Notes under the pieces: model-generated
Database searches by the model: none
What the model was told of the DNA's origin: nothing
Seen by the model: only the letters and a program-made list of their open reading frames with translations
Sequence record: NC_019517.1
Origin: Escherichia phage FV3
Direction: 5' to 3' (one strand)
DNA: 64,000 bases
Made by a program: the position numbers and the translations under genes
Part shown: piece after piece, positions 1-15,993 of the stretch
How positions within the stretch are numbered: the stretch's first letter is position 1
Layout: each line of letters opens with the position of its first letter

Positions 1-1083
1 GCCTGATAAGGACTGGTAACAAAGCGATAATCTATATCAATTATCTTTCTTTCTCCGTCCTTCTCCACCCACTCAGGCACGAACACTGATGGGAAGTCTG
101 TTTCAGAATACCCTTTGGTTGGACTAGTGAATCTACCAGTTATTGTGTTCGATCTTTTGTCGAAGGAGGCTTCCGGATAGATCTTAACCTCACCGCAAAC
201 ACAGTCCTCACTCAGTGTCATTGTTGCTGGGCCATAGTATGCACCTACCAGCAGACCATACTTACCAGCTACATAGCTAAGATCTGCACCACAAGCTTTC
301 AGCATTTCTGCCATAATACTTGCTGGTGCTTCATCCGTGTCGAACTCACCATTAATGGTGTAACGACTCTCACTGGTTCCGTCTGCGTTTCTTACAGCCT
401 CGTCGCATATGTTGGCAGCCTCCTTGAAGGACTCCCAGTTGATGGTTTCGTCAGGACATTTAAGGTATGTTCTTAAATAGTCCAGAATCACCAAGGCAGC
501 GTTATTGGTATACACCTCTTTACTGGTGCGAGGATCATAGCATTTTTTACCAACCTTGATGAGTGTAACGTTTGGCAACCCAAAAGGGAACTTGTTAGGG
601 TCAAACCTGAAGCTAACACGCAGCCAGCTGATCCCTCTACCTATCATGTCCGGTGACCACGATGGGCAGTGTGTACCCATGAAAGGATCAGAGGTTTTTC
701 TGTCGTTATGTAGCTCCCACGATACCAAATCCCCATACGAGGAAATAGGATTACCGTCGATAAGTATATCTTCTATACCTTCCAGAGAGTGATTGGCAAG
801 AACAATAGCACAATGAAGGGTTCTGTCTCTATCCTGCTCCAAAAACGCAAGCAATCCAGATGTGCGTGTCTTACCATACACTACAGAACAAGGTGCAGCA
901 GAAGATCTAAGAAGCTTTTGCCTATCTTGCTGACTTCTGTAAGATTTGTTACCCTCGAAAATCTTATCCAGAGTTCTGGTGGTAACAGTGTTCAGGCTGT
1001 CAGCCAGAGCTGCCTTGGATGCGTTCCAGTCATAGCTTGAAGATCTTGCAGAAGCAACGATGTTATCAATCATTGCAATTGGC
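1..1083 (-). CDS. Distal tail / host-specificity-like protein, partial (N-terminal about 361 aa; 3' end beyond window start)
   Basis: Hand translation of the minus strand from ATG at 1083-1081 (GGAGG SD upstream, TAATG overlap with upstream gene stop) stays open to position 1; contains a KKCYDPRT-type segment reminiscent of lambda J-like central tail proteins. Absent from ORF track because no stop lies in the window. Confidence 0.45.
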
Positions 1084-1084
1084 A

Positions 1085-1522
1085 TTAATACCTCCAGACA
1101 TCAACAACGATAGAATCTTTCATATCGAACGTAAAGATCCCTTTATCACCTTTCGCCCAAATCTGGTTGTTCCAGAACACACCAGCGGTGAGGCCGTTCA
1201 GACCTTCGAAAATAACAATATCACCACGCTGAACCTGTTTAGGAGTATCCAGTCGAGTCAAAAAGAGATCAAAAACAGTAGGCAGGTGTGTGGTTTTGAA
1301 ACGGAGCATGCACCATCTCTTGCTTTCCAACTCTGTTTTATACGTTCCTTCAAAGTTAGAAAGAAAATCTGTCCCGTATTGGGCATCAACACACTTAGCC
1401 GCAAAAGTGCAACAATCGTGGAATCCCCATTCAAACGGGACGGTGGCTTCTTCGTCAAATACTTTCCACAATTTTTCTTGCCAGTCTACTAAACGAGGGT
1501 GTGTGCTCATTAAACCTCCCAA
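1085..1522 (-). CDS. Hypothetical tail-associated protein (145 aa)
   Basis: ORF in tail gene block, tightly packed with neighbours; contains HDCC motif; function not assignable by eye. Confidence 0.3.
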   Translation of the reverse strand: MGGLMSTHPRLVDWQEKLWKVFDEEATVPFEWGFHDCCTFAAKCVDAQYGTDFLSNFEGTYKTELESKRWCMLRFKTTHLPTVFDLFLTRLDTPKQVQRGDIVIFEGLNGLTAGVFWNNQIWAKGDKGIFTFDMKDSIVVDVWRY

Positions 1523-2076
1523 ATGATCGGGCGGCTCGCCACCTGATCCACATATTTAAAAAATCTGTCATTATCGTTTCTTGAGCTATGGCTTTCCTCT
1601 GTGTATCGGTAAGGAAAACCTCTTAACCAGCTGTTGAAGATGGAAGAGATGGATATGGACAAAGCACTATTCTCCCCTGTCTGAATAGCCATGTCCGTTA
1701 TAAGGCCGTCAAACAAGCCATTAGTTGTAACAGGCAAACCATTCTCCATAGCGGTGATATACAACGTGGCACGGCAACCAGAATACTCAGTCTTCAGAAG
1801 ATCACCTACATACTTGGGATCAAACCCGTTCAATGTTGCTACCACAGATCCGAAGTTGGTGGCATCTTTCTCAGACACAGCAGTCAATGTTGCTGATCCA
1901 CCTATCCCTATGAAATGTTGACCCTCAATCACTACAACACCAGTTCCTGAGCACACCCTGACAGTACCTGTTGGCAGCTCTAGCTTTGCAGCAATTAAGA
2001 TCTCAACACCATCAAGCTCTAGCTTTTCAAGAAATAAATTATCTAATGGCGCTCTTATCATCTTAGAAATCCTCAA
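1510..2076 (-). CDS. Hypothetical tail-associated protein (188 aa)
   Basis: ORF in the tail block, overlapping neighbours by a few codons (operon packing). Confidence 0.3.
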   Translation of the reverse strand: MRISKMIRAPLDNLFLEKLELDGVEILIAAKLELPTGTVRVCSGTGVVVIEGQHFIGIGGSATLTAVSEKDATNFGSVVATLNGFDPKYVGDLLKTEYSGCRATLYITAMENGLPVTTNGLFDGLITDMAIQTGENSALSISISSIFNSWLRGFPYRYTEESHSSRNDNDRFFKYVDQVASRPIIWEV

Positions 2077-2653
2077 AGAAGTTGATAACTATATTGTCAC
2101 CTTTCTGCATAGCATCAACCTTTTGCTTAATTTTATAAAGATCTCTGATATGAAATCTACCCTTCGGAGATTGAGTTATTATCTTCATGGTATCCCCTGC
2201 GGCAATAGGTTTCCTAAGTCTTGGAGATATGTTTATAACAGCAGCCCCAACACCATCGCTTCGTACTGAGGCTGTCACCACTTTCAACTCATCATTGACA
2301 GATATTTTATCCCCAGCTCTGGCTATATCCCTGTTAGGCTCCCAACCAACCGTCTTCAAAAAATCGTCGTTACCAGTCGGTCCGAGAGCGATTGGCTCGT
2401 TGGAGGTAACTGAATGCCCATAAGCCTTGATAAGAAAAATGTTCCCATCTTTGTAAACCTGATCAACAAAGCTTTTGAGCTCCAACAACTGAGACTCGCT
2501 GATATTGGAAACCGTCAAAGTGCCTTTCCAGTTAGGAGTGGCATAGGTGACTTTTTGCGTCTTACCTGTAAACGGGCTTTTAAATGTAACGATGTCTGCC
2601 AGTAACTCCAATCTAATATCTGGGAGGTATCTAGGCCTTTCCCATAAAAACAT
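2063..2653 (-). CDS. Hypothetical tail-associated protein (196 aa)
   Basis: ORF immediately downstream of the long fibre gene on the minus strand. Confidence 0.3.
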   Translation of the reverse strand: MFLWERPRYLPDIRLELLADIVTFKSPFTGKTQKVTYATPNWKGTLTVSNISESQLLELKSFVDQVYKDGNIFLIKAYGHSVTSNEPIALGPTGNDDFLKTVGWEPNRDIARAGDKISVNDELKVVTASVRSDGVGAAVINISPRLRKPIAAGDTMKIITQSPKGRFHIRDLYKIKQKVDAMQKGDNIVINFFEDF

Positions 2654-2705: not shown

Positions 2706-2735
2706 ATACGCAATACAAACAAAAAGCCCCCGCCG
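2706..2735 (-). terminator. Intrinsic terminator downstream of long tail fibre gene
   Basis: Minus-strand RNA forms GC stem with UUCG tetraloop (plus 2716-2735 gcccccgccgaagcgagggc) followed by U-tract (plus A-run 2709-2715). Confidence 0.6.
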
Positions 2736-2752
2736 AAGCGAGGGCAAAACAG

Positions 2753-5700
2753 TTACTTCAATTTTCCTTGTAACTCGGTAACAACCTCTGTTAGTTTTTT
2801 AACCTGTTCCTCAAGGGAGGTTATTCTATCATCTTGTTCTCTGCAAACCTGAACAAGCAATCCTGTTACAGCCGCATAGTCAACATTATAGAATCTTTCC
2901 TCGGTCATCAGAGGAATACCATCTTGAGTAGGACCAGGAACCTCTTTCCTTTTCACGAAAGAACCAACAGCTTCAGGTAATGCTTCCATGACCTCTTGAG
3001 CAATTACCCCCGCGTGAGGCATACCATTCTCTTTTAGAGTGTAGGTATAGCCCTTCATCTTACGGATAGCTTCCAGCGCGTTAGGAATAACCTCTATGTT
3101 ATCCTTCAGGTCACGGTCAGAGCTCTGGCTGACAGCGGTGCACTCTACTACGCCGTTGACAGCAAGGTACCTTGACTTGGCCTCATCTGTCTTAGCACCA
3201 CAATGCCATACCCAACTGGCAGATGTAGCGTTGTCGTTTATCTGGAACTCAAGCACGTTCTTCCTGTCTGCGCCATTACCCCAGTAGTACATTCTGCCTG
3301 TATTAGAAGGCATGTTGGAAGTGTTGGTAACATCAGTCCCGCCACCTGTATGTATCATGAACTCCGGGTCAAGATTGGAGCCTGCGGTTTTAAGAGTAAT
3401 TCCCTTACCACCAAGCTGCTGCCAAGGTCCCCATGTGAAAACACTACCTATTGTTGTTCCATAACGCAGGAATTTTTCCCCAAGATATGATATATACTCC
3501 TGTACGCAACTCTCTGGAACATTGGCGTAGTTCCTATACACTATAAGCGTACCTGCTCGGGAGCATGGGTAGTTTCTATCAGGTGTGGCTTGAGCATTGG
3601 CCTCCTGATGATAAAAACCTTCCCTATCCCCTTTGTAGTCGTTAAGGTCATTAATCCCTAGACCTTGCCCTCTGTGTTGTATGACCTTGTTCCACGCTCT
3701 ATGGTTACCACCCTCGATAGATCTGGTGTATAACTGATCAAGGCGGCCAGCCATTTGGAAAGCATAGTTTCCAGAGAACGCCACAGACAGTCCACCAACA
3801 ACCATCGAGCCCTCTGGTCCGTTAACATTACCCGCCATTATTTTTGACGGGTTATTAGACCCAAACTGGTTGTTCCAGTCTCCACCAGTATGACATACAA
3901 AACCACCAGGGGCCGAGAAAGTACCGTCTTTGTTGAAATTGTAGAATCTGTGAGCTGTGCCCACAACATCGCGAACAATAACTTGACCAGCTTCTGGGGT
4001 AGATCTGAACTCTGCCTGACCTTTGAGGCCAGCACCATTACCGCATTTAGAGGTAAACGTACCGTTAGTTAGATCCTCTGTTCCATCTGATGCACACTGG
4101 AATCCTGCATTAGAGAATAACGCCTTTCTAGGGCTGCCATAGCACAAATAGTCAATACCGTCAGCCCATAGTTCGACTTTAGGCATGTTCATTTTGCTCA
4201 TCACCGCATAGCGTTCAGCAGTGCCTATATAGTGCCACTGTGTGCCGCCGCCAGTGTAGAACCCAGAGGTACCTTTGAAGTCAACAACAGGTCTGGTGTT
4301 GGTATTGTCATCTCCAAGAACAGCAAGATTCAAATCTGCTGACTGGAGAGGCGCAACAAACTTAACACCGTCCTGATTGTCTGTTACAGCTCCGACCTGG
4401 TAATCTTGCTCTCTGGTAAACACTTCTACAACATTTCTACTTGCGTATACGCTGATAGGGAAAGCACGAGCCTCTGCATAGAAAGCAACATACTCTTGTT
4501 TACCCCTTGTTGGAGCAACCATTCCAAGAAGTGCTTTTTCATTTTGATAGAAATTTACTACCCCGTAGAAAGAATCTCCTCTATCTGTCCAACCACCAGT
4601 TCTATAGTGACACTGCAAGGTGGCGCAGTTCATAGGGTCACCGCCGGATGACGATCTGGTAACTAGGGTAATATCAGTGCCAGTTGTTGGAGCATAGTAC
4701 GGATCTGTTCTAACGATGATTGGGTAGTATTTCCCATCTTCCATCCCTGCAGTTCTTGGCAGTGTTAAGAAATCTTTGACACCCGCAGCTATAGGAACTT
4801 TGAACAGATTCTGAGCATCTGCCAGGGTTGTAGCCCCAGTGCCACCTGCGGCTTGAGGTAAAGGTTCCCACTTGGCCTTCCGGTTGTTATAAACACCCCA
4901 TTCTAGAGTACCATTACCGGATTCATCCATACCGCCATCCCAGACGACCATCTTAGCGGCTTTCTTGGAACCCCAGAACCCTCTTTCTGCCCCTGAACTA
5001 CGAATCCATTCCCCAAGTCCCCAGTTTGTCAGCTGACCCGTGAGATCCCCGACCTGCATGTACTTAGGACAATCTAATACACCATCTTCACGGAATCCTA
5101 AATACCGATGAGTTTCAGATCCTTTTGCGCCTTTGTGCAGGTGGACTGTTAACCAAGTCTTATTGTCGTTTCTTACCTCGGAGTAGATCCTATACCCATG
5201 CTCAAGGACACCGTCAGCACTGTATTTGTCCCCGTTAACAATACCTGATGCCGACTTAACATCAGCAGAGCTTTGAGACAGGTAAAGGTGCCCGAAGGTA
5301 GGGGAATTTCTAGACCCAAGACCGATGTGCGATCTAAAAGTATCATCGTTACGAGGTCTGACCATTGGCTGCCATGCAGTCCACTGGTTTGTGTTGGCCT
5401 GATAGGTTCTTAAATACCAAACATCTACGTTAGAGAATGGATAGTATTCCTGACGACAGCCAGTGCCACCGTTAGCATTGTTCTGCCAAACAATCAAGTG
5501 ACCAGCACCAGAACCTGCAGGATAACCATTTGCCTCAGTTGCATTAGCTGTCATCGGCTGGTAGTATATGCCGTCCTGATTACCAGTCAAGTTATTGATA
5601 TTGAAATTTGCCTCAAGGGCTGCACGTTGCTTATAGAAAGCACCGATATTGATACGGACTCCAGCGGCATCTCTGGCTCCTGTACCGCCTTGCTCTATAG

Positions 5701-6553
5701 CAAGAGGTTGCCACGAGGCTGTTTGCTGGTTCCACATACCCCAACGGCCTGTTGCATCAAGCTGCAAGTACCCTGCCGTGTTTAAATCATCTCCAGCACG
5801 GATAACTGTTCTTGTTGGGTTGTTTGCCTCCAGGCGTTTAAATTCATCACGAAGTGCTATTCTTTTTGTTGTTGCTACACCGTTGGTTACTGCAATGGTA
5901 TACATGGCTCCAGAGGTAGCGCCACGGAAAATACCATCAACAGTCGTAGTATCACGACGAGATACCACACCGTTCAAAAATTTTTCACCAGCTGCTTCAG
6001 AAGGGTAGTTAGTAGTTCTTCCCTCTTCAATAACTGCAGGACCAACAAAGTTGACAAGGTGAATAACATCGCCTACAGTATGCACTGTACCAAAATCTAC
6101 CCGCTGTGCAAGTGCTTTAGCATCGTTGGCTGTCTGAACCGTAACATCCATTACATCCTGGACAGACTGCCCTTCGGCTGTCATGATCATAGATGCGCCA
6201 ATGGTAGACTCCAACTCCTCCCTTAAGGACGGGTCTGTATATACCATCCATGCAGCATCAGTAATCCCACCATCAGAGTACGGTGAAGACAGTGCAGGCA
6301 CAGTGTGTGGAAATTCGCCTTTCCAACGCAGGTAGAGGTCTTCCTCTTCGAAGTAGGCAAAATCCATTGGGCCGTTTAACTTACCACCTTCCTTAAAGGA
6401 GATTACATGAGAAACAGTCCCATCCACATGGACAACATCGCCAATTTTTACACGACGGGTCAGGTCTGGTTGTTGAACAACCAGGTAATCATCCTCTGTC
6501 ACTGCGGTAGTGGCAGGAAGAGATTCAATTCTGACAACTTTAATATCAGCCAT
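2753..6553 (-). CDS. Long tail fibre protein with C-terminal intramolecular chaperone (peptidase S74-like) domain
   Basis: 1266-aa ORF; C-terminal about 130 aa carry the auto-processing chaperone signature (DRDLKDNIEV...GYTYTLKENG...AQEV...) followed by a coiled coil, as in T5 pb1 and endosialidase tailspikes; N-terminal about 85 aa homologous to N-terminus of ORF 9188..9856. Confidence 0.75.
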   Translation of the reverse strand: MADIKVVRIESLPATTAVTEDDYLVVQQPDLTRRVKIGDVVHVDGTVSHVISFKEGGKLNGPMDFAYFEEEDLYLRWKGEFPHTVPALSSPYSDGGITDAAWMVYTDPSLREELESTIGASMIMTAEGQSVQDVMDVTVQTANDAKALAQRVDFGTVHTVGDVIHLVNFVGPAVIEEGRTTNYPSEAAGEKFLNGVVSRRDTTTVDGIFRGATSGAMYTIAVTNGVATTKRIALRDEFKRLEANNPTRTVIRAGDDLNTAGYLQLDATGRWGMWNQQTASWQPLAIEQGGTGARDAAGVRINIGAFYKQRAALEANFNINNLTGNQDGIYYQPMTANATEANGYPAGSGAGHLIVWQNNANGGTGCRQEYYPFSNVDVWYLRTYQANTNQWTAWQPMVRPRNDDTFRSHIGLGSRNSPTFGHLYLSQSSADVKSASGIVNGDKYSADGVLEHGYRIYSEVRNDNKTWLTVHLHKGAKGSETHRYLGFREDGVLDCPKYMQVGDLTGQLTNWGLGEWIRSSGAERGFWGSKKAAKMVVWDGGMDESGNGTLEWGVYNNRKAKWEPLPQAAGGTGATTLADAQNLFKVPIAAGVKDFLTLPRTAGMEDGKYYPIIVRTDPYYAPTTGTDITLVTRSSSGGDPMNCATLQCHYRTGGWTDRGDSFYGVVNFYQNEKALLGMVAPTRGKQEYVAFYAEARAFPISVYASRNVVEVFTREQDYQVGAVTDNQDGVKFVAPLQSADLNLAVLGDDNTNTRPVVDFKGTSGFYTGGGTQWHYIGTAERYAVMSKMNMPKVELWADGIDYLCYGSPRKALFSNAGFQCASDGTEDLTNGTFTSKCGNGAGLKGQAEFRSTPEAGQVIVRDVVGTAHRFYNFNKDGTFSAPGGFVCHTGGDWNNQFGSNNPSKIMAGNVNGPEGSMVVGGLSVAFSGNYAFQMAGRLDQLYTRSIEGGNHRAWNKVIQHRGQGLGINDLNDYKGDREGFYHQEANAQATPDRNYPCSRAGTLIVYRNYANVPESCVQEYISYLGEKFLRYGTTIGSVFTWGPWQQLGGKGITLKTAGSNLDPEFMIHTGGGTDVTNTSNMPSNTGRMYYWGNGADRKNVLEFQINDNATSASWVWHCGAKTDEAKSRYLAVNGVVECTAVSQSSDRDLKDNIEVIPNALEAIRKMKGYTYTLKENGMPHAGVIAQEVMEALPEAVGSFVKRKEVPGPTQDGIPLMTEERFYNVDYAAVTGLLVQVCREQDDRITSLEEQVKKLTEVVTELQGKLK

Positions 6554-6588
6554 TCTTTCTCCTGAAAGGGGGCAAACAGCCCCCTATG

Positions 6589-9186
6589 TTAAAGGTACAA
6601 TCCACGGTATTGAGCATAAAGTCCCAGACCGCGAAGGATTTCGCCAGAGTGATAGCCTACCGGATCAGAAACTGCCCAGCAGCCGTTTAAAACATTATCC
6701 CCGTTAATGAAGTGGTGCTTTTGCAGTAACTTCACACAGGCTTCTACAACAATATCTATTTGAGGTATTGTCTCTGAATACCCGCAAAGACCTAGCCAGC
6801 AGCAACCTGCAAGCCATTCACCTACCACCCACATCCTGTCACCTCTGTCTTGATAAGAATATCCTCCTGAGGTGTTAAAGTCTGTAGGGAGATTTCCGGA
6901 ATGAGATGACTGGAATCTGTTGAGGAACCATGCCCATTTCTGGCAGAACAGGAACAGTCTTTCGTCAACAGGTTCTTTATGTTTCTTAAGCTCATATAGT
7001 GTGCGGCACGCAGCAACAAAGGCTCTTGATTGGAGTTTAGAGTTATCTACCATCTCCCACCAACCAGTCAACCCTTCATTACCCCTCTGCCATACGTAGC
7101 GGGATGCAACTGGTCCTTCTGTTTTAAATGTGTTATTATACCAAACTTGGGAGTCGTACATAAATCCAATTGTATTTGCCAATCTTTGACGATCTATGTT
7201 TTCCGCACCCATACAGTAGACTACCGGATATTGCATTCCGGGATAGGGCCAATTTGGCCTTTCCTCTAGAAGATAATTTTCCTTATCTATCACCTTTCCG
7301 GCAGGGAACACACCTGGAGTGTGTCTGTATGCGCCTTGCTTGTAGTTTCTGACATAGCAATCACCAACCTTGGCGGTTGATTCTGTCTTGCTTGCCATCC
7401 ATACACTAAACCAGATCAGATAAGCATCTCTATCTGCAACATAAAATTGCGGCAGCGTGTTGACGCAATACAGATCGAACAAGCCATTGCCTATCTGCCT
7501 GTCGCTCAGACTGAAATCTACAGAGGTAATTCCTTTAGGGTTGGCAAAGAAAGGTTTAATCTCATCTTCTGTGTGATGAGGTTGTGTTGGATCTAGTTTA
7601 AAATCCCCTAGGGTAAGAGTTTCTGTTATCCATTGTCCGTTAGTGGCATATAGATCAGCATACCATAACCAACGGTCTTTGTCAAGAAATTTGACCCTTA
7701 CCATCTCATCATCTGATCGATAAGTTACTGAGTTTAAAGAAATCTCTCTTCCAAAATTGAAAGTTACTTTGCCTCTTACTATGTTGCAACGGGTGAAGTT
7801 GTCGGAGTGGTTGTAAATGTCGGTATCATACTGCATACTAACACTAGCGCCACCGCTTACGGCAATGTTTTCCTCTTTTGGCAAGAGATACGGGTTACCG
7901 TCTTTACCAACCACCTCTACGAAATCAGTAACTTTGGCAACTGTCTCTGTTACTTCTGACCCTCCAAAAGGGACCCCTATCCTATACTGTTTTTTGTTAT
8001 TGTTGCCATCATTAAGGATGAAATGTGGCTGGAACAGAACCCCCTCTCCTCCGAAATTCATAACAATTTCAGCATCTCTGCCTATCTTGTATGTAGTCCC
8101 TTTTTGGATTATTTCGCAAGGCTGGCGTGCGTTCATTCTAAAATTGATATACCCGTCGCTGTCCCTACTCATGACAGGAACTGTTCCTGCAACGAGACAA
8201 GTACCATCTGTGAACGGTGCCTTAATCAACGTGGTCTTTCTAAACAACTTGTCGTAGGCATTTATATCACTGAAATTAAGCAACTTGTTGTAAGACTGTT
8301 TAAACGCTGTGTAATACTTTTCCTCGCCTGTCAAAGTGTAGAGTTGATAACAAGCGTCACACCACATTTCTTCCCCGTCCAACTCTGGGGCTTGATTGTC
8401 TGCAACCACATTTATAGGGTTTACAATTACAGGGGATCCAGCAGGTATCACCGATCCACCCTGCTCTTGTGGCAATCTCACACAGTAGGTTACTTTGTGG
8501 CTGCCTGTAACACCCTTATCCTGCAGTTGGATTGTGCCGAACTCTGCAGACGTATGACCACTGTCGGCTATGCTACCGTTGGCCCAATAGCGGTTACCAT
8601 CCCATGCTATATACCACTCAACCCACCAACTCAATCCAGATGTTGTCCAATTTGGGTTAGCATCTGTGCCGCCGTAAACATCAGAGTCTACAGTGTTTCT
8701 TCCTAGCACACCGTTATACGCTTGGAATGCCTTGTCTAGGTATTCACCCCATGTCGGAGATCCAGCTGGGATTTTTCCTCTACCGTTGGTAAAAGACACC
8801 ACTACATCTTTAAACCCACCATGTGATGGAACCCCGTCTGTGGATAATGGGTAGTGGGACAATCTTTGCATTTTACTTTCTACTGCATATGCACCCAGAA
8901 GGTGACTGTTGTAGGCTTCCCAAGCTTCTTTGGCCCTATCTAGATAAAAATCGCTTTTCGATGCCCTGTATGCTTCAATGTATCCCAGAATCAACACAGC
9001 TTGAGCTTCATGCATTGCCCAATCATTATTTATCTTACTCCCTGACCAACCTGACGCTATAAGTCCATCCTGGTTTACCAGTTTGTTCTGCGTGGGGAGA
9101 TTGGTAATGCCTGTGTTATTATCGAGGCACTTCCTGTGCCCCTCAATCATCTGAAATACGTTATCAATATTGTGTTGAATACGCAT
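6589..9186 (-). CDS. Large tail fibre / tailspike-like protein (865 aa)
   Basis: Large ORF directly upstream of the long fibre gene in the tail block; Trp/Tyr/Gly-rich, consistent with a beta-rich receptor-binding or glycan-active protein; no motif confidently assigned. Confidence 0.45.
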   Translation of the reverse strand: MRIQHNIDNVFQMIEGHRKCLDNNTGITNLPTQNKLVNQDGLIASGWSGSKINNDWAMHEAQAVLILGYIEAYRASKSDFYLDRAKEAWEAYNSHLLGAYAVESKMQRLSHYPLSTDGVPSHGGFKDVVVSFTNGRGKIPAGSPTWGEYLDKAFQAYNGVLGRNTVDSDVYGGTDANPNWTTSGLSWWVEWYIAWDGNRYWANGSIADSGHTSAEFGTIQLQDKGVTGSHKVTYCVRLPQEQGGSVIPAGSPVIVNPINVVADNQAPELDGEEMWCDACYQLYTLTGEEKYYTAFKQSYNKLLNFSDINAYDKLFRKTTLIKAPFTDGTCLVAGTVPVMSRDSDGYINFRMNARQPCEIIQKGTTYKIGRDAEIVMNFGGEGVLFQPHFILNDGNNNKKQYRIGVPFGGSEVTETVAKVTDFVEVVGKDGNPYLLPKEENIAVSGGASVSMQYDTDIYNHSDNFTRCNIVRGKVTFNFGREISLNSVTYRSDDEMVRVKFLDKDRWLWYADLYATNGQWITETLTLGDFKLDPTQPHHTEDEIKPFFANPKGITSVDFSLSDRQIGNGLFDLYCVNTLPQFYVADRDAYLIWFSVWMASKTESTAKVGDCYVRNYKQGAYRHTPGVFPAGKVIDKENYLLEERPNWPYPGMQYPVVYCMGAENIDRQRLANTIGFMYDSQVWYNNTFKTEGPVASRYVWQRGNEGLTGWWEMVDNSKLQSRAFVAACRTLYELKKHKEPVDERLFLFCQKWAWFLNRFQSSHSGNLPTDFNTSGGYSYQDRGDRMWVVGEWLAGCCWLGLCGYSETIPQIDIVVEACVKLLQKHHFINGDNVLNGCWAVSDPVGYHSGEILRGLGLYAQYRGLYL

Positions 9187-9187
9187 C

Positions 9188-9856
9188 TTAGATAGCTCCT
9201 GCGATAATCAGTGCCCCGTACCAAGTTAACCCGTTGTCGTAGGTTTCTAACTTGAAAATATCTGTTGCACCAGCTGTAAATGTTAGGATAGGATCTCTTC
9301 CGTATGCCCATTTAACATTATCAGGCCAATAGACTTTGTTGCCGCCAGATGTCTGAGTAATGCATACGGTTATAGTTCTCGCCACCCCTTCAAGACCTTC
9401 TGTTTGATTCTCAAAAGAGATCGTGGTATTTGAAGTTAGTCGAACTTTAAAAGTGTCAGCAACTTCAAGATCCATATCAAGCTGACCACCAATAGACCCG
9501 TAATCAACTATTCTACCAGAAGAAGTTGCAGCAAGCTCTCCAAAAACAGACCAGGCTTTTGCAGACACACCCCCAGCACCCTCTACAGTAGAGTCTGGGA
9601 GGATTATTTTAGGATAATCCCCGTTCCACGTGTAGTAGCGCTTGGTCTCTGGGTCATAAGCAAAGTCCTTCTTGCTCTTAAGATAACCACCCTCTGTGAA
9701 ATAGACTATTTTAGTAATGCTGAGATCGTTGACAACATCGTCAATCTTAGCCTTTCTTGTCCCATCAGTCTGATTGACAACCAAGAAGTCATCACTCAGG
9801 ACTGTTTCTGCATCTTCAAGATCTGGAATTGGTATTGTAGGATAAGCTACAGCCAT
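9188..9856 (-). CDS. Short fibre-like protein sharing N-terminal anchor domain with the 1266-aa fibre
   Basis: 222-aa ORF; first about 85 aa align with N-terminus of ORF 2753..6553 (DDFLVVNQTDGTRKAKIDDVV / DDYLVVQQPDLTRRVKIGDVV; FTEGGYL..DFAY / FKEGGKL..DFAY). Confidence 0.45.
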   Translation of the reverse strand: MAVAYPTIPIPDLEDAETVLSDDFLVVNQTDGTRKAKIDDVVNDLSITKIVYFTEGGYLKSKKDFAYDPETKRYYTWNGDYPKIILPDSTVEGAGGVSAKAWSVFGELAATSSGRIVDYGSIGGQLDMDLEVADTFKVRLTSNTTISFENQTEGLEGVARTITVCITQTSGGNKVYWPDNVKWAYGRDPILTFTAGATDIFKLETYDNGLTWYGALIIAGAI

Positions 9857-9865
9857 GATTTCTCC

Positions 9866-10582
9866 TTAGTTAACATCAATAGCACGACCAGACTGGTTGG
9901 CAATAGCCTCATCATTAGAGGTGGCAATAACACCAGAGTATTCGCGCTCATCTGGAGCAAGCGTCCAGGTATTGCGGTTAATGGTTTGTTCTGCCTCGGT
10001 CATCAGCAGATCTTTATCCTGAGTCAACAGAGAGCCTACAGGGATCGGGTTTTCCATCTCAGGACCAGCATACTGGTTCCACCATGTGGCATCCCCGGTT
10101 CTAGGTAATCTAAAGTTGATCAGGTAGTACAGTTTATTAGCCCACTTAATCCAACCTTCATCATCACAGAGAGAGGTTGTCCCGGCATCAGGCTGTGGAT
10201 AGGTAAACTGATCAAGACCTACGAAAGCAAGTCTTACAATCTCGTTCTCCTTGGTAACAACCTCAAAGAACGCTTGATATGTTCTCGATCTTCGATCCAT
10301 AGTAGATTGGAAGTTTATGATGTTTAGCACATCCGGCTCTTGTCTTGCCACTTCCATAATCTTGTTATCAAGAACAGTCTTCATGACCTTCTTGCTAAGA
10401 AAGTCCATATAAGGGAAGCCAAACAACTCATCAAAGTACCAGCTCCCTTTCCAGGTATTAAACCTCATCCACAGGCGCTGGCGCAGACTTACTTGGTTTG
10501 AGTCTATCAACTTAAGACCTTTGTCTATCGCCAAATCACCTGTCTGTGGGTCCATCAATATATCACTATAAAGCGTAGCCAT
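9866..10582 (-). CDS. Putative baseplate protein (238 aa)
   Basis: Position between spike-like gene and fibre genes; no motif assigned. Confidence 0.3.
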   Translation of the reverse strand: MATLYSDILMDPQTGDLAIDKGLKLIDSNQVSLRQRLWMRFNTWKGSWYFDELFGFPYMDFLSKKVMKTVLDNKIMEVARQEPDVLNIINFQSTMDRRSRTYQAFFEVVTKENEIVRLAFVGLDQFTYPQPDAGTTSLCDDEGWIKWANKLYYLINFRLPRTGDATWWNQYAGPEMENPIPVGSLLTQDKDLLMTEAEQTINRNTWTLAPDEREYSGVIATSNDEAIANQSGRAIDVN

Positions 10583-13653: not shown

Positions 13654-15993
13654 TTACCAAAGATCTGTTGACATAAAGTTAATATCTTTGTTATTCTCCC
13701 ACTCAAGTTTTGCATCGAGTATTTTGCTAAACTCACCCTCATCTATTGAAATCGTGATTTTGCCATCACTGATCTCTAAAGGTAGCATTTCCATAGTTCT
13801 TAATTGAGAAGCAAAACCAGGGCCACCTGGCAACGGAAGAGTACCGCCCGGTAAGGTATCCAAAGGATCAACAAACCCGTTACCTCCCGATATGATATCT
13901 TTGCGAATCATATCGCTGATAGTATCCAGTTGCTGATTTCTCTCACTCAGTGGGTTGAAACGGTCATTAAATAACTCCCCGGCACTTAATATTGTACCGA
14001 TAATACCAAGCTTACCAAGCAGGCCAACTTTACCACCAGGTGTCTTGAGGCCACCTCCCCCTTTTCCTGCTGCACCCCCACCAGATCCTTCTGTGGTAGC
14101 TGCACCCGCTGCTGCTGCTCCAGCTGCACCTCTTAGAGAGCTAAGGAATTTGAAGGTTTTTACAAGCATAGATGCCATGACAAAACCTTTTGTCAGGGCG
14201 TTCACTACCAGCATGATGGCAGCAGCAAACCCTGCCCATTTAGCATAGCTAAAGGTGTCATGAAGCTCTTCAGAATATTCCTTCGTCTTAGCTGTTATGA
14301 ATCCCCATTTAATCCCCCATTCAAGGAAAAACATGCGGATCTTGACTATGGTATTGTTTAGTTCACCAATTACCCAGTTGAGACCTCTCACAAACCCACT
14401 AACAAAATCACCAGAGGCATCCCACACAAATTGCAAAGTCTCACCAGTGCGAATCAGTGTATAATAGAACTCTGTTAGTTCATCAGCCCAACGGGTGAAT
14501 AGTTTCTGACGAGACAGTTCGATGAAGGTTTTCAGTCGGTTTTCTGCCAGTACGTTAGACTTCTGCATTCTTTCATAACCAGCTGCAGATGCCTCGTTCA
14601 TGTACTTAGCCACATACTTCATGATCTTGGCTGTCTTAACCTCACCTTTCTTCATCATGTCCATGAACTGATCCATGGATAGTTCAGAAAGACCAAAAGC
14701 CTCTTTGGTGGCCTTGATAAAAGGTTCGTATGCACCGGGCAATGCTTCAGCAAGTTGTTGCTTCAGTTCTTCGGACATTACCTGTCCTTTACCGAGCATT
14801 TGCTGGATTGCCATAATGCCGCGCTGGTATTTTACCTCATCGGCACCATAAGCAGCAGCATACTGTGAGTATGCAGAGAATAGCTCATGCACCTCTTGAT
14901 TTGTCATCTGGTTTTTGGCGTTTACCGCCATCTGGGCGTAACCTTGAAGACCAGATTTGAGATCAAAACCAAGACGCATAGCCTCTTGCTGGACAAACGC
15001 AACCTCACTGTTGGCCTTGTTTGGATCTCCAGTAACAGCAGTAAGAGCAGCACTTGCCCCCTCCATCATGTGACCAGATCTGTTCACAGCAGTAAATCCA
15101 GAGAAAGCCGTATACGCAGCTGTTGCATTAATAACAGATCTACGTAAGTCTCTCATGGCATCGCCTAGTGTAAGCGTTTGGCTTGTAGCGCTTTTAAATC
15201 CAGACTGCAGAGCTGACAGGTGGGCGTTAAAGGTTGACTTTTTCATCTCCCCGCGAGCAAACCTGGACTCTAACTCTGAGTATCCTGGCAAGCTTCCACG
15301 GAATCCGGCCCCATACTTGGCAGAAAGTCTTATCGCAGAGTTGTATAGGTGGGTTCTCCTTGCCTCACGATCAGACATAAGCTTATTATCCATACCAGCT
15401 TTACTGTCTCTTCTTAGCTGTCTATGATAACGATTCATAGCAGCTGTCTGAGCTTTCACAAGGTTAGGGTCGGAAGCCACACCACCCATATTAGAGTTAC
15501 CAGGGATATACTTGAAAGATTTGGCATTAGCCAAAACTCTTGCCTTAGGTGCCTTATAACCGCCGTAAGACACTGGTGCAGATTTGGTAGCCTTTTTGGC
15601 CTCTTTAGCTTGCTGCTGGTAGAACTTACGCATCCTAGCCATTTCTGGATTTTTAGCGGTAAGATTACCCACAGCTTGTTTACGTCTCGCGTTCTCCCTA
15701 CGTTCTATTGCAGCCCTTACTGCAGCCTCTTTCTTGGCCTGTGCTACGCTCTCCCTGTGCAGTTTAGCATTTGCCTGAGATTGCTGTCTGGCAACCCGCT
15801 GCATTGTTTGCTGGGTTTTAACAGCCACTGCCTGCCATCTACTCATTGGGTTGGCTGAGTTAAAATCCTCGCCCAGTTTCCTGAACTCCCTCCCAATACT
15901 GCGAATTTTCTCTACAGCTTTTTTGTAGGAGGAGTTCTCTATCTCAAAGCCAATCTTGTTGACTGTTGTGGCAACTATTTTGTTTGTAGCCAT
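13654..15993 (-). CDS. Tail tape measure protein
   Basis: 779-aa ORF immediately downstream of the chaperone frameshift pair; long alpha-helical/coiled-coil composition with a Gly/Ala-rich segment (GAAGAAAAGAATTEGSGGGAAGKGGGG). Confidence 0.75.
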   Translation of the reverse strand: MATNKIVATTVNKIGFEIENSSYKKAVEKIRSIGREFRKLGEDFNSANPMSRWQAVAVKTQQTMQRVARQQSQANAKLHRESVAQAKKEAAVRAAIERRENARRKQAVGNLTAKNPEMARMRKFYQQQAKEAKKATKSAPVSYGGYKAPKARVLANAKSFKYIPGNSNMGGVASDPNLVKAQTAAMNRYHRQLRRDSKAGMDNKLMSDREARRTHLYNSAIRLSAKYGAGFRGSLPGYSELESRFARGEMKKSTFNAHLSALQSGFKSATSQTLTLGDAMRDLRRSVINATAAYTAFSGFTAVNRSGHMMEGASAALTAVTGDPNKANSEVAFVQQEAMRLGFDLKSGLQGYAQMAVNAKNQMTNQEVHELFSAYSQYAAAYGADEVKYQRGIMAIQQMLGKGQVMSEELKQQLAEALPGAYEPFIKATKEAFGLSELSMDQFMDMMKKGEVKTAKIMKYVAKYMNEASAAGYERMQKSNVLAENRLKTFIELSRQKLFTRWADELTEFYYTLIRTGETLQFVWDASGDFVSGFVRGLNWVIGELNNTIVKIRMFFLEWGIKWGFITAKTKEYSEELHDTFSYAKWAGFAAAIMLVVNALTKGFVMASMLVKTFKFLSSLRGAAGAAAAGAATTEGSGGGAAGKGGGGLKTPGGKVGLLGKLGIIGTILSAGELFNDRFNPLSERNQQLDTISDMIRKDIISGGNGFVDPLDTLPGGTLPLPGGPGFASQLRTMEMLPLEISDGKITISIDEGEFSKILDAKLEWENNKDINFMSTDLW

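What the first reader, a model, noticed from the sequence alone, without database searches (positions are those of the whole stretch)
2753..9856. Two fibre-like proteins share an N-terminal anchor domain; the long fibre ends in a self-cleaving chaperone domain
The first about 85 residues of the 1266-aa fibre and of the 222-aa protein are clearly homologous (DDYLVVQQPDLTRRVKIGDVV / DDFLVVNQTDGTRKAKIDDVV; FKEGGKL..DFAY / FTEGGYL..DFAY), implying two proteins that dock to the same baseplate site or to each other, for example alternative receptor-binding modules or a short fibre plus adaptor. The long fibre's C-terminus has the S74-type intramolecular chaperone signature, predicting autoproteolytic release after trimer folding.
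Basis: seen in the sequence. Interest (0 to 1): 0.5.

Follow-up and report, generated by a model that had tools for sequence, protein, structure and literature searches.

The report
Shared docking end on two phage tail proteins
In this rV5-like E. coli phage a long self-processing tail fibre and a small 222-residue protein carry the same kind of N-terminal docking module. The small protein is most likely an adaptor that holds the large protein encoded next to it, which is an ordinary modular design but helps assign unassigned tail parts.

Summary
Residues 7-105 of the 1266-aa fibre and 8-105 of the 222-aa protein align at 38% identity (E=2e-18; z=31 against shuffles). The fibre ends in a Peptidase_S74 chaperone domain with the S-D-x-x-L-K cleavage motif at S1145/K1150.

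The window is a Vequintavirus (rV5-like myophage). The three genes are orthologues of rV5 gp43 (222 aa), gp42 (865 aa) and gp41 (1266 aa). All three were detected in rV5 virions by mass spectrometry.

The shared module has two parts: a roughly 45-residue N-terminal peptide and a Pfam Tail_spike_N neck. phi92 gp140 and gp143 share only the peptide. The whole module heads proteins of 110-1599 aa with unrelated distal parts, as expected of a virion-docking end.

The C-terminal domain of the 222-aa protein is encoded immediately upstream of a gp42-family gene in 42/42 IMG/VR loci and 5/5 named phages. In those phages the carrier's N-terminus differs by lineage; in a T7-like podovirus it is the T7 tail-fibre N-terminal domain.

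So the 222-aa protein is best read as an adaptor carrying gp42, and gp41 uses a paralogous docking module. The docking socket itself is unknown. This is a known kind of architecture and of modest interest.

The parts
9188..9856 (-). 222-aa protein, orthologue of rV5 gp43. Proposed adaptor or carrier, made of a docking module plus a gp42-coupled C-terminal domain.
   Evidence: ORF. phrog_7760 E=6e-119. 92-96% nucleotide identity to Vequintavirus genomes. AF2 model with a 29-sequence alignment, pLDDT 76. The rV5 orthologue was found in virions.
9722..9856 (-). Anchor peptide of the 222-aa protein (residues 1-45; motif ..DL......DDFLVVNQTDGTRKAKIDDVV)
   Evidence: Homologous to residues 1-45 of the long fibre, z=11. 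It is the only part shared by phi92 gp140 and gp143. Predicted as a beta-hairpin plus a short helix, at low confidence.
9542..9721 (-). Tail_spike_N neck domain of the 222-aa protein (residues 46-105)
9191..9511 (-). C-terminal beta-sandwich domain of the 222-aa protein (residues ~116-222), the gp42-coupled domain
   Evidence: pLDDT 77-88. The same fold and sequence family closes many phage fibre proteins. It is found immediately upstream of a gp42-family gene in 42/42 IMG/VR loci and 5/5 named phages. 532 phage records carry it, against 529 for gp42, with a near-identical taxon breakdown.
6589..9186 (-). 865-aa gp42-family protein. Proposed cargo or distal subunit carried by the 222-aa adaptor.
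   Evidence: phrog_2871 E=0. No Pfam, NCBIfam or PDB relatives. Its start codon lies 1 nt after the stop of the 222-aa gene, with the RBS inside that gene. The rV5 orthologue was found in virions. The family occurs in 529 phage records.
2753..6553 (-). 1266-aa long tail fibre, orthologue of rV5 gp41
   Evidence: phrog_6578 E=0. Pfam Tail_spike_N plus Peptidase_S74. Alleles of 617-1481 aa differ by whole-module insertions and deletions.
6239..6553 (-). Docking module of the long fibre (residues 1-105): anchor peptide 1-45 (6419-6553) plus Tail_spike_N 46-105 (6239-6418)
   Evidence: 90% conserved among gp41 alleles whose distal parts differ.
5363..5605 (-). First knob-like repeat of the fibre (residues ~317-397)
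   Evidence: Aligns with residues 968-1047, z=16. The second copy matches the R2-pyocin fibre 6ct8.
3413..3652 (-). Second knob-like repeat of the fibre (residues ~968-1047)
2756..3121 (-). S74-type intramolecular chaperone domain (residues 1145-1266). Predicted cut between S1145 (3119-3121) and D1146, releasing 121 aa.
   Evidence: PF13884 60.8 bits. Motif SSDRDLK, with S1145 and K1150. It aligns with SSDRRIK of the S16 fibre 6f45 and with the MYRF domain. The same S|D..LK spacing marks the annotated cleavage site of phi92 gp143.
2726..2745 (-). Intrinsic terminator directly after the fibre gene
   Evidence: 8-bp stem (7 G-C pairs), loop TTCG, then TTTTTGTTTG.
6568..6584 (-). G+C hairpin (GGGGGC-tgttt-GCCCCC, then TTTC) in the 35-nt gap between the 865-aa gene and the fibre gene
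   Evidence: Read directly from the sequence. Function not tested.

Best explanation
The three consecutive genes encode two receptor-side devices of an rV5-like myophage. Both devices are mounted through paralogous N-terminal docking modules.

(1) The 222-aa protein is an adaptor.
- Residues 1-45 (anchor peptide) and 46-105 (Tail_spike_N neck) attach it to the periphery of the baseplate.
- Its C-terminal beta-sandwich (residues ~116-222) holds the 865-aa gp42-family protein, which is translated from the adjoining, translationally coupled gene.

(2) The 1266-aa protein is a long trimeric fibre.
- It starts with the same kind of docking module.
- It continues as a modular shaft with repeated knob domains.
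- It ends in an S74 intramolecular chaperone that helps the trimer fold and then cuts itself off after Ser1145, removing 121 residues.

Shown here: the homology, the domain content, the cleavage motif, the strict pairing of the C-terminal domain with gp42 genes, and the modular exchange of distal parts.

Taken from the literature: virion presence of all three rV5 orthologues.

Inferred: that the N-terminal module is the docking end; that the 222-aa protein physically binds the 865-aa protein; that cleavage occurs. Whether the two modules use the same socket or neighbouring sockets is not known.
For: Homology: E=2e-18, z=31, and both halves significant on their own.

The module is fused to unrelated distal parts. 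The 1.84-billion-protein search gave 576 hits. Full-module hits sit at the N-termini of proteins of 110-1599 aa that end in S74 domains, a Collar domain or a beta-helix.

The pair is conserved. There are two copies per genome in Vequintavirus and Seunavirus. phi92 gp140 and gp143 share only the first ~40 residues.

Carrier and gp42 coupling:
- 42/42 IMG/VR loci and 5/5 named phages have the C-terminal domain encoded directly upstream of gp42.
- Independent tblastn searches give 532 records for the domain and 529 for gp42, with almost the same taxon counts.
- Carrier N-termini differ by lineage. The T7-like phage Atoyac10 has Pfam Phage_T7_tail (E=1e-11) followed by the C-terminal domain. P2-like contigs place the pair between the J/I genes and the H-like fibre.

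A second, unrelated N-terminus is shared between the carrier and a neighbouring fibre in L036 (E=4e-46).

rV5 gp41, gp42 and gp43 were detected in virions (PMC3606486).

S74 evidence.

The stop of the 222-aa gene is followed after 1 nt by the ATG of the 865-aa gene.
Against: No complex was modelled or observed; the tools do not offer multimer prediction.

The anchor peptide is modelled at low confidence (pLDDT 50-68). It has no significant solved relative; the best is crAss001 gp22 at E=0.22.

The C-terminal domain fold also closes many phage fibre proteins, so it could be a receptor-binding tip in its own right.

The phi92 cryo-EM study could not fit gp140 and did not consider gp141.

The two anchors are only about 36% identical and may use different sockets.
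Confidence: 0.62

Rival explanations
1. The 222-aa protein is an independent, very short receptor-binding fibre (anchor, neck and tip domain). The 865-aa protein joins the virion by its own means. The two anchor-bearing proteins are then alternative receptor binders on one type of socket.
For: The C-terminal domain fold sits at the C-terminal end of many annotated phage tail fibre proteins. Databases call the protein a tail fibre.
Against: The C-terminal domain is encoded immediately upstream of a gp42-family gene in 47/47 loci examined. The two families occur in virtually the same set of about 530 phage genomes. In the T7-like phage Atoyac10 the 270-aa carrier is the only protein annotated as a tail fibre in the 8.8-kb stretch examined, which points to gp42 as the likely distal receptor-side part.
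Confidence: 0.18
2. The 865-aa protein is the branching hub. Both N-terminal modules plug into it, as CBA120 TSP1/TSP3 plug into TSP2/TSP4 and G7C gp63.1 plugs into gp66.
For: The gene order is adaptor, 865-aa gene, fibre. phi92 fibre I is L-shaped and fibre II leaves from its base. Tail_spike_N proteins form such complexes: B2 gp48/gp49.
Against: gp42 is conserved while the N-termini of its carriers change with the tail type: the T7 tail domain, a helical N-terminus in P2-like phages, and others. Anchor-like fibres exist in phiEt88, which has no gp42. No gp10-like domain was detected in gp42.
Confidence: 0.1
3. The 865-aa protein is a dedicated folding factor for the C-terminal domain of the 222-aa protein, in the way downstream tail-fibre assembly genes work. 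It is not a permanent partner.
For: Fibre chaperones are classically encoded directly downstream of the fibre gene and match its C-terminus (established knowledge for P2 G, Mu U and lambda Tfa). The strict adjacency was seen here.
Against: It is five times larger than known fibre chaperones. rV5 gp42 was detected in purified virions. Atoyac10 would lack a receptor-binding part.
Confidence: 0.07
4. The N-terminal similarity is only a generic structural neck (Tail_spike_N) left by domain shuffling, with no shared docking role.
For: Tail_spike_N alone occurs at varying offsets in hundreds of tailspikes. In Sf11 the attachment is made by helices N-terminal to it.
Against: The similarity includes residues 1-45, outside the Pfam domain (z=11). 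The phi92 pair shares only that peptide.
Confidence: 0.03

Closest known systems
rV5 gp43 / gp42 / gp41, and their counterparts PVP-SE1 gp51 / gp50 / gp49 and phi92 gp140 / gp141 / gp143
   Same: Orthologous genes in the same order, directly after the sheath-initiator gene. The rV5 proteins are virion components. The K1F-chaperone-like C-terminus of gp41 and the tailspike-like N-terminus of gp43 were already noted. The PVP-SE1 annotation already calls gp49 a fusion with an rV5 gp43-like N-terminus.
   Different: The distal part of the third gene differs: a knobbed fibre here, a 712-aa protein in PVP-SE1, an endosialidase in phi92. phi92 gp140 lacks the neck domain. In the papers read here, the BASEL paper says it is unclear which genes build which fibres, and the phi92 cryo-EM paper does not mention gp141.
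Branched tailspike complexes of CBA120 (TSP1-4) and G7C (gp63.1 on gp66), and Shigella phage B2 gp48/gp49
   Different: No T4 gp10-like branching domain was found in the three proteins here. The anchor peptide has no counterpart among solved structures.
Peptidase S74 intramolecular chaperone domains (K1F endosialidase, phi92 gp143, T5 pb1, S16 gp37, MYRF)
   Same: Pfam match, C-terminal position and an S-D-x-x-L-K motif with the same Ser-to-Lys spacing as the annotated phi92 gp143 site.
   Different: Here it closes a knobbed fibre rather than an endosialidase. Cleavage was not shown for this protein.
Adaptor-plus-enzyme receptor-binding systems of podoviruses (K1E/K1-5 gp37 with endosialidase; the KP32/KP34 anchor, branching-domain and conserved-peptide scheme, PMC6872550)
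   Same: A small virion-docked protein carries a separately encoded large receptor-side protein, and the N-terminal anchors are exchangeable.
   Different: The coupling element here is a different, uncharacterised C-terminal domain paired with an uncharacterised cargo family. It occurs in myoviruses of several types as well as in a T7-like phage.
T-even gp37 with the separately encoded tip adhesin gp38 (T2/S16 type)
   Same: The fibre's C-terminal domain is matched to the product of the next gene, which stays on the virion (established knowledge).
   Different: The cargo here is about 865-1170 aa and shows no sequence relation to gp38.

Membership tests
Peptidase S74 / C-terminal intramolecular chaperone domain | Match to Pfam PF13884 above the gathering score | tested here: met
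   60.8 bits against a cut-off of 22, E=1.5e-16, residues 1145-1196, profile positions 1-57 of 58.
Peptidase S74 / C-terminal intramolecular chaperone domain | Serine at the domain boundary with a lysine five residues downstream (Ser/Lys dyad, S-D-x-x-x-K) | tested here: met
   S1145-D-R-D-L-K1150. Aligned to SSDRRIK of 6f45. The annotated cleavage site of phi92 gp143 is S756|D-G-T-L-K761.
Peptidase S74 / C-terminal intramolecular chaperone domain | Lies at the extreme C-terminus of a trimeric fibre or spike; the released fragment ends in a helical or coiled-coil stretch | tested here: met
   121 residues follow S1145. The tail, ITSLEEQVKKLTEVVTELQGKLK, aligns with the helical end of 6f45 and of MYRF.
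Peptidase S74 / C-terminal intramolecular chaperone domain | Autoproteolytic release after trimer folding | not testable with these tools
   Needs protein chemistry or virion mass spectrometry.
Tail_spike_N-containing tailspike/fibre N-terminal modules (CBA120 TSPs, G7C gp63.1) | Pfam PF18668 above the gathering score | tested here: met
   41.2 and 40.5 bits against a cut-off of 25, in both proteins.
Tail_spike_N-containing tailspike/fibre N-terminal modules (CBA120 TSPs, G7C gp63.1) | Same fold as the solved N-terminal domains | tested here: met
Branched receptor-binding complexes (anchor, T4 gp10-like branching domain, docking peptide) | A T4 gp10-like branching domain in one partner | tested here: inconclusive
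   No Gp10 Pfam hit in the three proteins.
Branched receptor-binding complexes (anchor, T4 gp10-like branching domain, docking peptide) | Physical docking of the second protein's N-terminal peptide on the first protein | not testable with these tools
   No multimer prediction was available.
Adaptor + separately encoded distal protein (carrier and cargo) | The carrier's N-terminus is a virion-attachment domain | tested here: met
   The homologous carrier in Atoyac10 has Pfam Phage_T7_tail at residues 24-135 (E=1e-11), followed by the C-terminal domain. For the window protein this is inferred by position.
Adaptor + separately encoded distal protein (carrier and cargo) | Carrier and cargo genes always adjacent and co-distributed | tested here: met
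   42/42 IMG/VR loci and 5/5 named phages. 532 against 529 phage records, with matching taxon counts.
Adaptor + separately encoded distal protein (carrier and cargo) | Stable physical complex in the virion | not testable with these tools
   The only support is that both rV5 orthologues are in virions.
Vequintavirus (rV5-like) tail locus | Nucleotide identity and synteny with rV5-like genomes | tested here: met
   92-96% identity over all 7104 bases in more than 100 genomes. Same gene order as WalterGehring.

The most novel reading that the evidence does not exclude
The C-terminal domain of the 222-aa protein and the 865-aa gp42-family protein form a portable two-gene 'carrier and cargo' cassette. 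It has spread through P2-like, rV5/phi92/PVP-SE1-like, Felix O1-like, jumbo and Ackermannviridae myoviruses and into a T7-like podovirus. It fits each tail by swapping only the small carrier's N-terminal docking domain. In rV5- and phi92-like phages this complex, together with the fibre that bears the paralogous anchor, would account for the still unassigned fibres I and II that share one base on the wedge. The papers read here contain no such description.
Probability: 0.55. Interest if true: 0.55.

Novelty: new member of a known kind. Interest (0 to 1): 0.35.

Why it matters
rV5- and phi92-like phages are common broad-host-range coliphages used in therapy cocktails. Yet as of 2021-2026 it is still unclear which genes build which of their side fibres.

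Three things follow from this analysis:
- Knowing that two proteins share one docking module, and that one of them probably carries the large neighbouring protein, gives testable assignments for those fibres.
- It marks residue ~105 as the natural swap point for host-range engineering.
- It points to a widespread, uncharacterised tail protein family (gp42, about 530 phage genomes) with a simple rule for how it is mounted.

The S74 prediction tells experimenters to expect a mature fibre of 1145 residues.

Tried and rejected
- A single-sequence AlphaFold run of the 222-aa protein was useless (pLDDT 35). It used one of the two prediction jobs, so the 865-aa protein and the fibre N-terminus could not be modelled.
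- The first word-index homologue search found only 4 relatives. An alignment query was needed. The last such search, on gp42, added nothing.
- The 865-aa protein has no Pfam, NCBIfam or PDB sequence relatives.
- An anchor-only profile against the PDB gave only an insignificant match, to crAss001 gp22 (E=0.22).
- A profile of the whole 222-aa family hits solved structures only through the neck domain.
- A self-BLAST for repeats in the fibre returned nothing. Targeted alignments then showed the repeats.
- Searches for PDB codes in papers were mostly noise. Schwarzer 2012 on phi92 is not held.
- Recent gene conversion between the two anchors was considered and rejected. They are 36% identical, and the 222-aa protein's anchor is closer to its orthologue in PVP-SE1 (47%).
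- The idea that the 865-aa protein is the hub for both anchors was rejected: carrier N-termini change with tail type while gp42 stays the same.

Full report
WHAT THE WINDOW IS

The 7.1-kb region matches more than 100 Vequintavirus (rV5-like) E. coli myophage genomes at 92-96% nucleotide identity over its full length.

On the minus strand the window carries the tail module in this order:
- tape measure protein (13654-15993)
- tube initiator, plug, hub and central spike
- sheath initiator (9866-10582)
- the 222-aa gene (9188-9856)
- an 865-aa gene (6589-9186)
- the 1266-aa gene (2753-6553)

Notes in the PVP-SE1 record fix the rV5 names: 222 aa = gp43, 865 aa = gp42, 1266 aa = gp41.

BLASTP aligns residues 7-105 of the fibre with residues 8-105 of the small protein (38% identity, E=2e-18). 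The local alignment score is 176, against 27 +/- 5 for 2000 shuffles (z=31).

The two halves are each significant: residues 1-45 z=11 and residues 46-105 z=18. Nothing beyond residue ~110 is related.

The second half is Pfam Tail_spike_N (PF18668) in both proteins. The fibre also has Peptidase_S74 at residues 1145-1196.

Only these two proteins carry the module in the window, in the rest of the tail locus of a close relative, and genome-wide by tblastn, which finds two places per genome.

THE S74 END

- The domain boundary reads S-S-D-R-D-L-K, with S1145 and K1150.
- It aligns with SSDRRIK of the S16 fibre chaperone (6f45) and with the MYRF auto-processing domain.
- It has the same serine-to-lysine spacing as the annotated cleavage site of the phi92 endosialidase precursor, S756|DGTLK761.
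- The prediction is a cut after S1145, releasing 121 residues. Cleavage itself was not shown.
- The similarity of rV5 gp41 to the K1F chaperone was already published in 2013 (PMC3606486).

WHAT THE SHARED MODULE IS

A profile of the two N-termini was searched against 1.84 billion representative proteins and gave 576 hits.
- Hits to the whole module lie at the extreme N-terminus of proteins of 110 to 1599 aa. Their distal parts are unrelated: S74-ended fibres of several lengths, a Collar-domain fibre and a beta-helix tailspike.
- Hits to the Tail_spike_N half alone occur at many different offsets in other tailspikes.

Alleles of the fibre itself keep residues 1-330/395 at about 90% identity while whole distal modules are gained or lost. 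The shaft contains repeated knob and junction units.

In phi92 the counterparts gp140 (157 aa) and gp143 (endosialidase) share only the first ~40 residues. gp140 lacks the neck domain.

The conserved core of the pairing is therefore the ~45-residue N-terminal peptide, and the neck is an optional spacer. In Sf11, the only in-situ structure of a relative that was read for this report, the neck domain follows the segment that makes the attachment.

All this is the classic signature of a virion-docking end. That reading is an inference from comparative data, not an observation.

THE MIDDLE GENE CHANGES THE PICTURE

An AlphaFold model of the 222-aa protein, built on a 29-sequence alignment (pLDDT 76), has three parts:
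- a low-confidence N-terminal hairpin and helix;
- a confident C-terminal beta-sandwich, whose fold closes many phage fibre proteins.

Homologues of the 865-aa protein were then fetched from IMG/VR, giving 45 loci. In all 42 loci where upstream DNA is present, the gene immediately upstream ends in this C-terminal domain (E 1e-18 to 1e-37). This holds even where gp42 is only 30% identical and the upstream protein (172-560 aa) has a quite different N-terminus.

The same arrangement was found in five of five diverse named phages:
- a jumbo Seoulvirus
- a Felix O1-like Kolesnikvirus
- Loughboroughvirus ZCSE2
- an Ackermannviridae Vibrio phage
- the T7-like Aeromonas phage Atoyac10

Independent tblastn searches of 50,697 phage records give the following:

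| Query | Records | Escherichia | Salmonella | Vibrio | Erwinia | Campylobacter | Cronobacter | Aeromonas | Klebsiella |
|---|---|---|---|---|---|---|---|---|---|
| gp42 | 529 | 240 | 101 | 62 | 33 | 23 | 12 | 7 | 6 |
| C-terminal domain | 532 | 238 | 101 | 60 | 33 | 23 | 12 | 7 | 6 |

In Atoyac10 the carrier's N-terminus is the T7 tail-fibre N-terminal domain (Pfam PF03906, E=1e-11). That it attaches the T7 fibre to the tail is established knowledge.

In P2-like contigs the pair sits between the baseplate J/I genes and the H-like fibre gene.

In the window, the 865-aa gene starts one base after the stop codon of the 222-aa gene.

The simplest reading is that the 222-aa protein is an adaptor. 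Its N-terminus fits the tail type, and its C-terminal domain is matched to the 865-aa protein, which it carries. rV5 gp41, gp42 and gp43 were all detected in virions.

SHARING OF THE CARRIER'S N-TERMINUS RECURS

- The same anchor family is shared by the carrier and a downstream receptor-side protein in Vequintavirus (1268 and 1479 aa), in Seunavirus (712 aa) and in phi92-like contigs (558 and 705 aa).
- In locus L036 a completely different 115-residue N-terminus is shared by the carrier and the neighbouring 673-aa protein (E=4e-46).
- phiEt88 has a homologous baseplate but no gp42. Its two last tail genes both begin with an anchor-like motif. The motif in gp27 was judged by eye only.

These cases argue that the N-terminus binds the baseplate rather than gp42.

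WHAT REMAINS OPEN

The socket is unknown. In phi92, fibre I attaches to the C-terminal domain of the wedge protein gp145, and fibre II leaves from the base of fibre I. The same paper could not identify fibre II and does not mention gp141. Two fibres sharing one base would fit two proteins with paralogous anchors, but this is speculation.

The two anchors are 36% identical, and the small protein's anchor is closer to its PVP-SE1 orthologue (47%). The duplication is therefore old, and the sockets may differ.

The fold and activity of the 865-aa protein could not be examined: it has no family or PDB match, and the prediction jobs were exhausted.

COMPARISON WITH KNOWN SYSTEMS AND VERDICT

Conserved N-terminal anchors joined to exchangeable distal parts are well described. 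So are adaptor proteins, branched receptor-binding complexes and S74 chaperones (PMC6872550 and related papers). The N-terminal likeness of PVP-SE1 gp49 to rV5 gp43 is already written in a GenBank note.

The finding as written is therefore correct but ordinary: a new member of a known kind.

The added value is the rule pairing the carrier's C-terminal domain with gp42. No description of it was found in the papers read here. It gives concrete, testable assignments for the side fibres of rV5- and phi92-like phages.

Noticed in passing
window 1-2653 (minus strand): 2063-2653, 1510-2076, 1085-1522 and the ORF running off the left end at ..1085: Directly after the fibre's terminator lies a four-gene cassette that looks like a lambda-type siphovirus tail tip:
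- a Dit-like 196-aa protein (phrog_1302);
- a 188-aa tail protein (phrog_2048);
- a 145-aa DUF6950 protein (annotated as cell wall hydrolase in WalterGehring);
- a gpJ-like giant. In the relative WalterGehring this is 1279 aa, with Pfam Ig_J, Ig_J_second and Phage_Tail_Tip.

PVP-SE1 and phi92 lack the cassette at this position.
   Followed up: partly
window 6568-6584 (minus strand): A perfect 6-bp G+C hairpin (GGGGGC tgttt GCCCCC, then TTTC) sits in the 35-nt gap between the 865-aa gene and the fibre gene, just before the fibre's ribosome-binding site. It could be a weak terminator or an mRNA-stability element that sets fibre dosage.
   Followed up: no
GenBank records MG065652, MG065682, MG065676, MG065666, MG065635, MG065674, MG065690 and others: About 18-23 records named 'Campylobacter phage' (host C. 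jejuni) carry this Vequintavirus locus at 98-100% protein identity to the E. coli phages. This suggests contaminating coliphages or mis-assigned hosts.
   Followed up: no
window ~34000: GC skew flips sign at about 34 kb. Long ORFs are on the minus strand to the left (structural genes) and on the plus strand to the right. This marks a divergent transcription boundary.
   Followed up: no
L052 (Erwinia phage vEam_PM_21) 872-1945 and 3552-4286: In this Felix O1-like phage a 357-aa 'tail fiber' combines an anchor-like N-terminus (E=0.003) with a T4 Gp10 C-terminal domain. The gp42 carrier (244 aa) also starts with an anchor-like motif. This may link the anchor peptide to gp10-type branching proteins.
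   Followed up: partly
L005 (Erwinia phage phiEt88) 8258-8902 and 8902-10878: This 47-kb temperate myophage has an rV5-like inner baseplate. It ends its tail module with two proteins (214 and 658 aa) that both begin with an anchor-like motif; the motif in the smaller one was seen by eye only. It has no gp42 homologue.
   Followed up: partly
PDB 7qoj chain J (crAss001 tail fibre gp22), residues 28-58: It is weakly similar (E=0.22, not significant) to the anchor-peptide profile: AATPLKGNETVVLVQNGKNVKASVKDVVEQL. The motif may be much more widespread than HMMER can show.
   Followed up: no
window 2753-6553; proteins P0005-P0008: Natural alleles of the fibre (617, 827, 988 and 1481 aa) differ from this 1266-aa version by clean loss or gain of whole internal modules. 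One allele (1481 aa) has a different C-terminal end with no S74 match.
   Followed up: partly
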